In this document: piece by piece, positions 58,101 to 61,100 of the stretch
How positions within the stretch are numbered: the stretch's first letter is position 1
How the letters are laid out: each line of letters begins with the position of its first letter
Source: Escherichia coli
Lineage (GTDB): Bacteria > Pseudomonadota > Gammaproteobacteria > Enterobacterales > Enterobacteriaceae
DNA: 64,000 nucleotides
Strand: one strand, 5' to 3'
NCBI RefSeq assembly: GCF_003334335.1
Contig: NZ_QOWQ01000007.1
Position numbers: made by a program

Positions 58101-61100
58101 TTTGCCGGGAAGAGATATTTTCCCAACGTGACCAGTACCACCGCGAAGACAATTACGCCGAGCGCCAGCCATTCAATCTTCGACAGCGTCTCTCCGCCCA
58201 GTCCCGTACCCAGCAAGACCGCGACCACCGGGTTAACGTAGGCGTAGCTGGTGGCGAGAGCCGGACTGACATTACGGATTAAATACATATAAGCGTTGAT
58301 GGCGATAATCGAACCAAACAGCGCCAGATAGCCGACCGCAAGGAAGCCTGAAAGGGAAGGGAGCGCCGTCAGTTTTTCACCTGCAATCATCGACGCGATC
58401 ATTAACACCACGCCTGCCGCCAGCATCTCAATCGCACCCGCCATCATCCCTACAGGTAAGGTAATGCGCGAGCCATAAACCGAGCCAAACGCCCAGCTAA
58501 TCGAGCCGATTAAAATCAGAATCGCGCCCCACGGATTGCCGCTTAAATTTCCACCGCTATTGAGCATGATGATTCCGGCAAGCCCAATGGCGATACCCAC
58601 CCATTCCAGTTTGCGCGTTTTAATGCCAAACAGGCGGCTGAAGCACAGGGTAAAGAGGGGCACGGTTGCAACCACAACGGCGGCGATGCCGGAAGGAACA
58701 TTTTGATGCTCGGCAACCGTCACCATGCCATTACCGACAGCCAGCAATAACAGGCCAATCAGCGCGGCATTGAGCAGCGGACGTAGCGGGGGGAGCTTGT
58801 GTCCGCGCAGTAGCAAAAATGCCATCAATAAAATACCGGCTGCCAGGAATCGAACGCCTGCCATCATTAACGGAGGCCAGCTTTCCACGCCAATCCGAAT
58901 GACAAAATAGGTTGAGCCCCAAATGATATACAACGCAAACAGCGCGCCAAAAAGCGGTAACAACTGGCGGAAACGCATAATCCCTCACGGTGGAAATAAA
59001 AAGGTGGTTCATAGTAAACGTGAAAATCATTCTGCTGGCGAGAGATATAATTGCACTTGATTGTTAAAAAAATGTTGACCTGTGAAGCAAGTATCAGAGC
59101 TGCCGTTTTTGCTTCATACTTACACCCTTCAACAATAAAAATGAGAGGGAATGCTTTTGGCCGGGAGTAGTTTACTGACGTTGCTCGATGATATCGCCAC
59201 ACTACTGGACGATATCTCCGTGATGGGCAAACTGGCGGCGAAGAAAACCGCCGGTGTATTAGGGGATGACTTATCGCTCAATGCGCAACAAGTTTCAGGC
59301 GTGCGGGCCAACCGGGAACTTCCCGTGGTCTGGGGCGTGGCGAAAGGATCGCTGATTAATAAAGTGATTCTGGTGCCGCTGGCGCTGATCATCAGTGCGT
59401 TTATCCCGTGGGCGATTACGCCTCTGTTGATGATTGGTGGCGCGTTTCTCTGCTTTGAAGGAGTAGAGAAAGTGCTGCATATGCTGGAGGCGCGTAAACA
59501 TAAAGAAGATCCGGCGCAGAGCCAGCAGCGTCTGGAGAAGCTGGCGGCGCAGGATCCGCTGAAGTTTGAAAAGGACAAAATAAAAGGGGCGATTCGTACC
59601 GATTTTATATTGTCTGCCGAAATCGTCGCCATCACGCTGGGGATTGTGGCCGAAGCGCCGTTGCTTAATCAGGTGCTGGTGCTTTCAGGCATCGCGCTGG
59701 TAGTGACCGTGGGCGTCTACGGTCTGGTAGGGGTTATCGTTAAGATTGATGACCTGGGGTATTGGCTGGCGGAAAAATCCAGCGCGCTGATGCAGGCATT
59801 AGGTAAAGGGTTATTGATCATTGCGCCCTGGTTGATGAAGGCGTTATCGATTGTCGGCACGCTGGCGATGTTCCTCGTCGGCGGTGGGATTGTGGTACAT
59901 GGAATTGCGCCGCTGCATCACGCCATTGAACATTTCGCCGGGCAGCAAAGTGCAGTGGTGGCGATGATATTACCGACTGTTTTAAATCTGATTCTTGGAT
60001 TTATCATCGGCGGCATCGTGGTGCTGGGAGTGAAAGCCGTAGCGAAAATACGCGGTCAGGCACATTAATACTCGCACAGGCTATTATGCAAAATTCGCCA
60101 TCTTCAACTAAGGTGAACAAGTTTCACTCGAAAAAAGGAGGCGAGTATGAGCTTTATGGTTAGTGAGGAAGTTACGGTTAAAGAGGGCGGCCCGCGGATG
60201 ATTGTCACCGGATACTCCAGCGGTATGGTTGAGTGTCGTTGGTATGACGGTTACGGGGTCAAGCGGGAAGCTTTTCATGAAACCGAGCTTGTTCCGGGGG
60301 AGGGGAGTCGTTCTGCGGAAGAAGTTTGAAAGGGTATCATTAACACCCGACCGGATGTGGCGCACACGTCGCATCCGGTCGGGTGTGCCAGTGTCTGCAC
60401 TGAATTGCCTGATGCGACGCTATCGCGTCTTATCATGCCTACGTTATAAAACTATCGATGTCTGTCGCGTCTTATCATGCCACCATTATAAAATTATCGC
60501 TGTTTTGCGGTACGCTATCGCCAGGTTATGCCAGAATCATAAAAAAGCAGGTTGGGAGTCGTCAGGGTGCAGCACGAGACAAAAATGGAAAACCAGAGCT
60601 GGTTGAAAAAACTCGCACGCCGCCTGGGGCCTGGTCATGTCGTTAATCTCTGCTTTATCGTGGTATTGCTTTTTTCCACCTTGCTCACCTGGCGTGAAGT
60701 GGTAGTGCTGGAAGATGCCTATATCTCCAGCCAGCGTAATCATCTGGAAAACGTAGCCAACGCGCTCGATAAGCATTTGCAGTATAACGTCGACAAACTG
60801 ATCTTTTTGCGTAATGGCATGCGCGAAGCTCTCGTAGCGCCACTGGATTTCACCTCTCTGCGTGATGCTGTAACCGAGTTCGAACAGCATCGCGACGAGC
60901 ACGCCTGGAAAATCGAACTCAACCGACGACGCACCCTGCCAGTCAATGGCGTATCGGATGCATTAGTCAGCGAGGGAAATCTCCTGTCTCGCGAAAATGA
61001 AAGCCTCGACAATGAAATTACCGCTGCACTGGAAGTTGGTTACTTGCTGCGACTGGCGCACAACTCCTCGTCGATGGTTGAACAGGCGATGTATGTCTCG

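What the first reader, a model, noticed from the sequence alone, without database searches (positions are those of the whole stretch)
60335..60520. REP-like palindrome plus two direct repeats between yodC and dgcQ
An inverted repeat is followed by two ~40-bp direct repeat copies. This resembles BIME/REP clusters and could influence dgcQ mRNA stability or termination of yodC.
Basis: seen in the sequence. Interest (0 to 1): 0.2.

Follow-up and report, generated by a model that had tools for sequence, protein, structure and literature searches.

The report
Decayed REP/BIME cluster after yodC
The palindrome and the two repeats between yodC and dgcQ are an ordinary E. coli REP/BIME element, namely two inverted REP hairpins plus the stump of a second tandem copy; it sits where related genera have the yodC terminator and varies in length between E. 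coli strains.

Summary
There is a 20-bp-arm inverted repeat at 60343-60386 and a 2 x 42-nt tandem repeat at 60420-60503. That repeat is the only tandem repeat TRF reports in the 64-kb window.

The palindrome is a Z-type REP. Z, a linker and the inverted Y together form a BIME.

Other Escherichia species carry this unit after yodC. E. whittamii and strain E69 carry two tandem units. The window's repeat copies match their unit 1 (94%) and unit 2 (97%). Copy 2 is therefore the stump of a second BIME unit, not an independent motif.

About 60 other Enterobacteriaceae loci have a canonical intrinsic terminator at this position instead.

Among 5426 complete E. coli genomes:
- 1153 carry the window's allele.
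- 63 carry one repeat unit fewer.
- About 4147, including K-12 and O157, carry a 170-nt allele with both REPs eroded.

The most likely function is inferred, not shown: a 3' hairpin that stabilises yodC mRNA and attenuates read-through towards dgcQ.

Verdict: an ordinary member of a known kind, of low interest.

The parts
60147..60329 (+). yodC coding sequence (60 aa); stop codon TGA at 60327-60329
   Evidence: ORF list; RefSeq annotation of identical or near-identical loci
60343..60386 (+). Z-type REP hairpin with an extended stem. The REP core is 60349-60380. The 6-bp stem extension ACACCC/GGGTGT replaces the usual 5' GTAG. The stem starts 14 nt after the yodC stop codon.
   Evidence: Inverted repeat. 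RNA MFE -41.1 kcal/mol. Aligns to the Z2 half of Rfam naRNA4/REP325. Orthologous Z REPs in other Escherichia species. Compensatory stem changes.
60387..60406 (+). Head-to-head linker between the two REPs. It is specific to this locus.
   Evidence: A 13-nt insertion relative to the naRNA4 model's linker falls within this region. A 30-nt query spanning the linker finds 1 place per genome, and only in the 1215 genomes with an intact BIME.
60407..60442 (+). Y-type REP in inverted orientation (an iREP on the + strand). CTAC is at 60439-60442; on the - strand it reads GTAG followed by an imperfect palindrome.
   Evidence: Consensus match with 1 mismatch, 0 expected by chance. Rfam alignment. RNA hairpin -14.8 kcal/mol, z = -4.4.
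60420..60461 (+). Direct repeat copy 1: loop and 3' arm of the Y REP plus AT-rich flank 1 (60443-60461). It corresponds to unit 1 of the two-unit arrays in E. whittamii and strain E69.
   Evidence: 94% and 91% identical to unit 1 of E. whittamii and E69, against 80% to copy 2.
60462..60503 (+). Direct repeat copy 2: a truncated Y REP (loop and 3' arm only, 60462-60484) plus AT-rich flank 2 (60485-60503). It is the remnant of a second BIME unit. All 15 E. coli sequences read here retain it.
   Evidence: 97% and 89% identical to unit 2 of E. whittamii and E69. It has no fold of its own (z = -0.07).
60525..60537 (+). GTTATGCCAGAAT, conserved across Escherichia, the Citrobacter loci L012 and L014-L021, and Salmonella. 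It is the probable dgcQ -10 region: TG at -15/-14, C at -13, then CAGAAT. This is an inference only.
   Evidence: Right-aligned upstream regions of dgcQ from many genera. No experimental transcription start site was found in the literature search.
60567..62261 (+). dgcQ (diguanylate cyclase), GTG start as annotated in RefSeq; intact in the window

Best explanation
The feature is a BIME: two REP hairpins in inverse orientation, followed by the stump of a second tandem BIME unit. The first hairpin is a Z-type REP at 60343-60386. After a 20-nt linker comes an inverted Y-type REP at 60407-60442. The two 42-nt direct repeats are (1) the loop and 3' arm of that Y REP plus its AT-rich flank, and (2) the same part of a second unit. 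That second unit has lost its Z REP and the 5' arm of its Y REP by deletion.

The BIME unit entered the yodC-dgcQ spacer in the Escherichia lineage, at the place where other Enterobacteriaceae keep a canonical intrinsic terminator. It was later duplicated in tandem and has since decayed differently in different lineages.

The most likely mode of action is inferred from what is known of REPs, not shown here. When transcribed from the yodC promoter, the very stable Z hairpin (-41 kcal/mol, no U-tract), backed by the Y hairpin, would mark the steady-state 3' end of yodC mRNA and block 3'-5' exonucleases. It would also partly attenuate read-through into dgcQ. dgcQ probably has its own promoter downstream of the repeats. 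Because the stem starts 14 nt after the stop codon, it could also lower yodC translation by stalling terminating ribosomes. On this reading the direct repeat has no function of its own and is a by-product of BIME amplification and decay.
For: Identity:
- The Y consensus matches with 1 mismatch, with none expected by chance.
- Rfam naRNA4/REP325 aligns over its full length to both hairpins.
- The REP cores occur at a median of at least 38 places per E. coli genome.
- The element is extragenic, between two tandem genes.

Origin of the repeats:
- All six other Escherichia lineages sampled have Z, linker, Y and an AT-rich flank after yodC. E. whittamii and E69 have two such units in tandem.
- Window copy 1 is 94% identical to E. 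whittamii unit 1 and copy 2 is 97% identical to unit 2, while the two window copies are only 80% identical to each other over this 3' segment.
- Tandem BIME copy number at a locus is known to vary between strains (PMC3333891). Here the counts are 1153 genomes with 2 repeat copies, 63 with 1 copy plus an intact BIME, and about 4147 with the eroded 170-nt allele.

Function:
- About 60 loci from Citrobacter, Salmonella, Enterobacter, Kosakonia, Klebsiella and other genera have AACGCCCGGC...GCCGGGCGTTTTT directly after the yodC stop codon and no REP. Escherichia has the REP hairpin there, without a T-run.
- A hairpin is kept in every allele read: -41.1 kcal/mol in the window, -25.3 in K-12.
- Three lower-stem pairs show double-sided compensatory changes within E. 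coli and its closest clade. On the Escherichia alignment 88% of cells are paired and 6 pairs have changes on both sides, far above the slid controls.
- REP325 was shown to act as both stabiliser and partial terminator, and REP-containing tandem gene pairs show upstream-biased expression (bioRxiv 10.64898/2026.03.23.713779).
- REPs fewer than 16 nt from a stop codon lower translation (Liang 2015, as cited in PMC12306157).
Against: - There are no transcript data for this locus. The yodC 3' end, read-through into dgcQ and the dgcQ start site are all unmeasured here.
- The intact BIME is dispensable. About 76% of E. coli genomes carry an allele with a 13-nt deletion in the Z REP and no complete Y REP.
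- A natural recombinant (Z1323CEC0014) and O157 tolerate mismatches in the stem.
- Compensatory changes in a palindrome can arise from template-switch mutation or from exchange of whole haplotypes, without selection on structure.
- REPs do not uniformly lengthen mRNA half-lives (bioRxiv 10.64898/2026.03.23.713779).
- The Z REP lacks the 5' GTAG, and its usual stem mismatch is replaced by pairs. It is therefore an atypical REP.
Confidence: 0.8

Rival explanations
1. Neutral relic. The BIME and its repeat stump are selfish or junk DNA left by RAYT/TnpA_REP-mediated or recombinational amplification and decay, with no effect on yodC or dgcQ expression.
For: Most E. coli genomes carry the eroded allele. 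A 42-nt unit has been lost by recombination between the copies in 63 genomes. A recombinant with a disrupted stem exists. Repeat copy 2 has no structure of its own. The BIME segment is a hyperdivergent island, with 9 substitutions in 51 aligned nt plus two indels, between flanks that are 443/443 and 103/103 identical. That pattern is typical of BIME instability (PMC3333891).
Against: A strong hairpin 14 nt after the stop codon is retained in every allele sampled, with compensatory changes. It occupies the position of a terminator conserved across the family, so some 3'-end function had to be taken over or lost.
Confidence: 0.3
2. The 42-nt repeats, in particular their AT-rich part TTATAAAAYTATCG, act at the DNA level as an upstream promoter element (UP-like) or as regulator binding sites for dgcQ. 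The copy number would then tune dgcQ transcription.
For: Copy 2 is kept in all E. coli alleles read and in all Escherichia species sampled. Its AT-rich part (60485-60499) lies roughly 45-60 nt upstream of the start site predicted from the conserved TGCCAGAAT. That start site is an inference.
Against: There is no experimental start site or known regulator site here. There is no IHF consensus in the spacer. The sigma-70 scan finds no + strand promoter in the spacer. Copy 1 is absent from about 78% of genomes. The sequence similarity between the copies is fully explained by descent from a duplicated BIME unit.
Confidence: 0.1
3. The palindrome is a Rho-independent terminator of yodC.
For: It is a very stable GC-rich hairpin just downstream of the stop codon, at the position where other genera have such a terminator.
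Against: No T-run follows the stem; the sequence after it is GCCAGTGTCTGC. The terminator scan finds no sites in 60000-60700, nor in the K-12 allele. A caveat on the scan: it also missed the obvious Citrobacter terminator, because the A/T pairs were absorbed into the stem. The absence of a T-run here is nevertheless plain from the sequence itself.
Confidence: 0.05
4. The region encodes a naRNA4-like nucleoid-associated small RNA.
For: The Rfam naRNA4 model aligns over its full length (41.2 bits).
Against: The score is below the family's gathering threshold of 59.5. The match only reflects the generic Z2-linker-Y architecture of a BIME. Recent work finds no nucleoid-compaction role for REP325/naRNA4 (bioRxiv 10.64898/2026.03.23.713779).
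Confidence: 0.03

Closest known systems
BIME-2 / atypical BIME of E. coli (alternating Y and Z2 REPs, tandemly amplifiable; e.g. REP325 between yjdM and yjdN)
   Same: A Z2-like REP and a Y REP lie in inverse orientation, head to head, between two tandem genes. Sister lineages show tandem amplification of the whole unit, and copy number and linker vary between strains. The full-length alignment to the REP325-derived Rfam model fits this (PMC3333891).
   Different: Relative to the REP325-derived model there is a 13-nt insertion in the linker region, and the linker is specific to this locus. The Z REP has lost its GTAG and its stem mismatch and gained a 6-bp stem extension. Only one unit is intact, followed by a truncated second one. 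The locus is not annotated as a REP in K-12 MG1655, where both REPs are eroded.
BIME-1 / RIP elements (Y + Z1 with a long L linker carrying an IHF site)
   Same: A single pair of inverted REPs separated by a longer linker.
   Different: There is no IHF consensus anywhere in the spacer. The linker is not a dispersed conserved motif. The unit is amplified in tandem in relatives, which BIME-1 is not (PMC3333891).
Rho-independent terminator of yodC in other Enterobacteriaceae
   Same: It occupies the same position, a few nt after the yodC stop codon. It is a GC-rich hairpin with a comparable free energy: -20 to -30 kcal/mol there, -25 to -41 here.
   Different: It has no U-tract, and its sequence belongs to the REP family rather than to the conserved CGCCCGGC...GCCGGGCG stem.

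Membership tests
REP / palindromic unit (E. coli Y, Z1, Z2) | A 30-40-nt imperfect palindrome that matches the Y or Z consensus | tested here: met
   Y: 60407-60442 matches GCCKGATGCGRCGYNNNNRCGYCTTATCMGGCCTAC with 1 mismatch and 0 expected by chance. The consensus was written from memory and is corroborated by the Rfam naRNA4 consensus. Z: 60349-60380 aligns to the Z2 half of naRNA4 and to Z REPs of other Escherichia species. A stricter Z pattern allowing 3 mismatches did not match, so the Z copy is diverged.
REP / palindromic unit (E. coli Y, Z1, Z2) | Conserved GTAG 5' of the palindrome foot (CTAC on the other strand) | tested here: inconclusive
   Y: met, with CTAC at 60439-60442. Z: not met in the window, where ACACCC takes the place of GTAG. 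GTAG is present in the paralogous second-unit Z of E. whittamii and E69, while other lineages have GCAG or ATAG.
REP / palindromic unit (E. coli Y, Z1, Z2) | Mismatch or bubble in the stem (needed for TnpA_REP binding, PMC3333891) | tested here: inconclusive
   Y: internal mismatches are kept (fold). Z: the canonical AA/GC bubble is replaced by G-C and T-G pairs, giving 20 uninterrupted RNA pairs (columns 18-19 with 32-33).
REP / palindromic unit (E. coli Y, Z1, Z2) | Extragenic location and high copy number in the genome | tested here: met
   The element lies between yodC and dgcQ. A query holding these REPs finds a median of 38 places per genome, with the 40-piece limit per record reached in 3891 records, in all 5426 genomes.
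BIME | Two REPs in inverse orientation, Y alternating with Z, separated by a linker | tested here: met
   Z at 60343-60386, linker at 60387-60406, inverted Y at 60407-60442.
BIME-1 | Conserved long L linker with an IHF binding site; single copy | tested here: not met
   None of the 7 WATCAANNNNTTR matches in the window lies in 60330-60566. The linker is unique to this locus.
BIME-2 / atypical BIME | Z2 + Y with a short S linker, tandem multi-copy arrays, and copy number that varies between strains | tested here: inconclusive
   Tandem two-unit arrays occur in E. whittamii and E69, and length alleles occur in E. coli: met. The linker region carries a 13-nt insertion relative to the REP325-derived model: a departure. 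'Atypical BIME' fits best. The Z1 versus Z2 assignment rests only on the naRNA4 alignment.
Rho-independent terminator | GC-rich hairpin immediately followed by a U-tract | tested here: not met
   No terminator-like site in 60000-60700. The sequence after the stem is GCCAGTGTCTGC.
naRNA4 (Rfam RF02564) | Score at or above the family gathering threshold | tested here: not met
   41.2 bits against a threshold of 59.5.

The most novel reading that the evidence does not exclude
In the Escherichia lineage a REP hairpin was co-opted to replace the ancestral intrinsic terminator of the sigma-S-dependent small-protein gene yodC. Compensatory evolution has since kept it as a long, perfect stem. On this reading, the three length alleles now segregating in E. 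coli (237, 195 and 170 nt) act as a natural cis-regulatory polymorphism. They would set yodC mRNA stability and translation, and the amount of read-through into the cellulose-regulating diguanylate cyclase gene dgcQ. This would contribute to strain differences in c-di-GMP and biofilm behaviour.
Probability: 0.15. Interest if true: 0.4.

Novelty: new member of a known kind. Interest (0 to 1): 0.17.

Why it matters
It matters little beyond annotation.

- It shows that an unannotated spacer in many E. coli genomes holds a bona fide BIME that is eroded in K-12. That erosion explains why the reference annotation is silent.
- It gives a clean, datable example of three things: a REP element taking the place of a conserved intrinsic terminator, BIME tandem amplification followed by lineage-specific decay, and a hyperdivergent island confined to a BIME between identical flanks.
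- If the length alleles alter yodC or dgcQ expression, they would be an easy natural test case for the recently proposed model of REPs as combined terminator and stabiliser.

Tried and rejected
- Canonical terminator: rejected, because no T-run follows the stem. The scan tool also missed the clear Citrobacter terminator, so the comparison with other genera rests on reading the sequences.
- naRNA4-type sRNA: below the Rfam threshold, and the match is generic to the BIME architecture.
- No other Rfam family reaches its threshold in the region.
- BIME-1/RIP: no IHF consensus in the spacer.
- Dispersed 42-nt repeat family: rejected. The flank and the linker each occur once per genome, and only at this locus.
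- Recent 42-nt slippage duplication as the origin of the repeat: rejected. The copies are 80-86% identical to each other but 94% and 97% identical to units 1 and 2 of E. whittamii. Unit loss by recombination between the copies does occur, however (the HS30-1 type).
- A strict Z-REP consensus search found nothing in the window. Only a looser 3'-arm pattern found the lone REP at 47466.
- K-12 MG1655 annotation: no REP feature at this locus.
- Literature searches for a dgcQ/yedQ start site or a yodC-dgcQ operon found nothing usable.
- Term-seq supplements of PMC6061677 are not held. Liang 2015 (PMC4427526) is not held.
- Small ORFs overlapping the spacer (30-62 aa) were not pursued. They run through REP sequence, and one overlaps the dgcQ start.
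Full report
**1. The observation**

The window is E. coli. The local genes are yedA (58058-58978, - strand), yedI (59151-60068, +), yodC (60147-60329, +) and dgcQ (GTG at 60567, +).

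- The inverted repeat has 20-nt arms at 60343-60362 and 60367-60386, with a 4-nt loop.
- Two adjacent 42-nt copies lie at 60420-60461 and 60462-60503 and are 86% identical.

Neither is a chance feature.
- The hairpin folds at -41.1 kcal/mol (z = -8.2).
- The tandem repeat is the only one TRF reports in the 64 kb.
- The whole spacer folds better than all 200 shuffles (z = -3.6).

**2. What it is**

A Y-type REP consensus matches 60407-60442 with one mismatch, and no matches are expected by chance. Repeat copy 1 starts in its loop.

The palindrome is a Z-type REP in the opposite orientation. The Rfam model naRNA4, built on the REP325 BIME, aligns over its full length to 60349-60439. It places the Z2 hairpin on 60349-60380 and the Y hairpin on 60407-60439, with a 13-nt insertion in the linker. 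The score is 41 bits, below the gathering score of 59.5.

A query containing these REPs hits a median of 38 places per genome in all 5426 complete E. coli genomes. By contrast, the linker and the AT-rich part of the repeat occur once per genome, at this locus only. There is no IHF consensus in the spacer.

The feature is therefore a BIME of the Z2/Y kind. Using the classes of PMC3333891, it is best called atypical.

**3. Where the direct repeats come from**

Loci encoding YodC were fetched from one genome per species. All other Escherichia lineages sampled have the same arrangement after yodC: Z REP, linker, Y REP and an AT-rich flank. These are L007, L008, L010 and E. albertii (L009). E. whittamii (L013) and strain E69 (L011) carry two such units in tandem, with a period of about 122 nt.

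Over the 3' arm and flank:
- Window copy 1 is 94% and 91% identical to unit 1 of those two arrays.
- Window copy 2 is 97% and 89% identical to unit 2.
- The two window copies are only 80% identical to each other.

The duplication is therefore old and involved the whole BIME unit. In the window the Z REP and the 5' arm of the Y REP of unit 2 have been deleted, leaving the second 42-nt copy.

**4. Variation within E. coli**

Alignment of 15 E. coli sequences and junction-specific searches give three length alleles.

| Spacer length | Description | Genomes |
|---|---|---|
| 237 nt | As in the window | 1153 |
| 195 nt | Intact Z and Y, one repeat unit; a recombinant between copies 1 and 2 (HS30-1 type) | 63 |
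| 170 nt | K-12, O157 and most others: a 13-nt deletion of the top of the Z hairpin, and a 54-nt deletion removing the Y REP and flank 1 | about 4147 |

The K-12 MG1655 annotation accordingly has no REP at this locus.

The BIME segment is a hyperdivergent island. Between the window and strain ST2350, the 443 nt upstream and the 103 nt downstream are identical. The hairpin and linker, in contrast, differ at 9 of 51 aligned positions, in addition to the two indels.

One strain (Z1323CEC0014) is a recombinant with its breakpoint inside the hairpin. [quoted passage not shown]

**5. The hairpin is kept**

Every allele read retains a strong stem 14 nt after the stop codon. MFE ranges from -41.1 kcal/mol in the window to -21.3 in RMDEC465, with K-12 at -25.3.

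Within E. coli and its nearest clade, three lower-stem pairs change on both sides: C-G/A-T, A-T/G-C, and C-G/T-G/T-A. On an alignment of 11 Escherichia Z copies:
- 88% of cells are paired.
- 6 pairs show double-sided changes.
- The covariation score is reached by 1 of 500 shuffles.
- All slid controls are far lower.

The window's Z REP has lost the 5' GTAG and the canonical stem bubble, and has gained a 6-bp stem extension. By the criteria of PMC3333891 it should no longer bind TnpA_REP. The Y REP keeps GTAG (on the - strand) and its mismatches.

These changes are compatible with selection for a stable hairpin. They are also compatible with palindrome-templated mutation or with exchange of whole haplotypes.

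**6. Context in other genera**

About 60 loci from Citrobacter, Salmonella, Kosakonia, Enterobacter, Phytobacter, Lelliottia, Trabulsiella, Klebsiella, Buttiauxella, Cedecea and other genera have a conserved intrinsic terminator within a few nt of the yodC stop codon. Its sequence is AACGCCCGGC-loop-GCCGGGCGTTTTT. None of these loci has a REP.

Escherichia has the REP hairpin in that place, without a T-run. The motif GTTATGCCAGRAT (60525-60537) is conserved in Escherichia, in Citrobacter loci L012 and L014-L021, and in Salmonella. It is a plausible extended -10 region with C at -13 for dgcQ. This is an inference, because no mapped start site was found. yodC itself has a sigma-S ChIP peak at its 5' end (PMC4447067) and is sigma-S dependent in Salmonella (PMC5437024).

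**7. How it most likely works**

Shown here:
- The element is a BIME.
- Its position relative to the yodC stop codon.
- A stable hairpin is kept in every allele read.
- There is no U-tract after the stem.
- It sits where a family-wide terminator is found in other genera.

Inferred from published work on REPs:
- The hairpins form the protected 3' end of yodC mRNA. Transcription probably ends further downstream, possibly with the help of Rho, and the tail is trimmed back to the hairpin. This follows Newbury 1987 and Espeli 2001, as cited in PMC6061677.
- The hairpins partly attenuate read-through into dgcQ, as shown for REP325 between yjdM and yjdN (bioRxiv 10.64898/2026.03.23.713779).
- With 13 nt between the stop codon and the stem, the element also meets the 'fewer than 16 nt' condition under which REPs lower translation of the upstream gene (Liang 2015, as cited in PMC12306157).

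The direct repeat itself is best seen as a by-product. Copy 2 alone has no structure (z = -0.07).

**8. Rivals**

- Neutral relic (about 0.3). Most genomes carry the eroded allele, and stem-disrupted recombinants exist.
- UP-like element or regulator sites for dgcQ in the AT-rich part (about 0.1).
- Intrinsic terminator (about 0.05; no U-tract).
- naRNA4-like sRNA (about 0.03; below threshold).

**9. Verdict**

This is another member of a well-known kind of element, showing the known behaviour of that kind. The replacement of a conserved terminator and the sharply bounded allelic dimorphism are tidy but not surprising. Interest is low.

Noticed in passing
L088 (strain 204446), L094 (PRO_A-1443), L095 (PRO_A-2576); the gene equivalent to window 60567-62261: dgcQ is annotated as a pseudogene (internal stop or frameshift) in 3 of the 15 E. 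coli sequences read (the window plus 14 fetched genomes). This suggests frequent natural inactivation of this cellulose-regulating diguanylate cyclase. It is intact in the window.
   Followed up: no
L090 (E. coli Z1323CEC0014), spacer equivalent to window 60330-60566: A recombinant allele. The left hairpin arm is of the O157/short type and the right arm is of the long type, giving two stem mismatches. It also has a 5-nt duplication (AAAAC) in flank 1, so the spacer is 242 nt.
   Followed up: partly
window 60417-60426 and 60512-60521: An exact 10-nt direct repeat, ACGCTATCGC. One copy spans the 5' arm and loop of the Y REP; the other lies just upstream of the conserved GTTATGCCAGAAT motif. It may be chance.
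   Followed up: no
L038, L041, L042, L044, L053 and similar (Enterobacter and Lelliottia loci), downstream of yodC: In many Enterobacter-group species only about 25-45 nt separate the yodC terminator from the dgcQ start codon. That leaves little room for a dgcQ promoter, so dgcQ may be expressed there by terminator read-through or from a promoter inside yodC.
   Followed up: no
L026, L027, L031-L033, L036, L045, L047, L055 (Citrobacter loci, including C. youngae, C. werkmanii, C. braakii, C. portucalensis): In these loci yodC is not followed by the conserved terminator or by dgcQ. A different downstream sequence is shared among them (…CTCTCAACCATTAGTTATATTTATCATTTTGG), pointing to a rearranged locus.
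   Followed up: no
window 47466-47499: A lone Z-type REP, GTAGGCCGGATAGGGCGCTCGCGCCGCATCCGGC, with GTAG intact. It was the only other REP found in the 64-kb window with the patterns used.
   Followed up: partly
window 25409-45183: Four tRNA-Asn genes (25409, 27817, 29641, 44027) and a tRNA-Ser (45094). The 14-kb gap between the third and fourth tRNA-Asn was not examined for an island.
   Followed up: no
window 571-694, 3433-3507, 54779-54868, 63271-63357: Rfam hits above threshold: the his operon leader (- strand), STnc240 (+), RseX (-) and DsrA (+).
   Followed up: no
E. coli genome searches: Two genomes have two places matching the copy1-copy2 junction. These could be a three-copy allele or a duplicated locus.
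   Followed up: no
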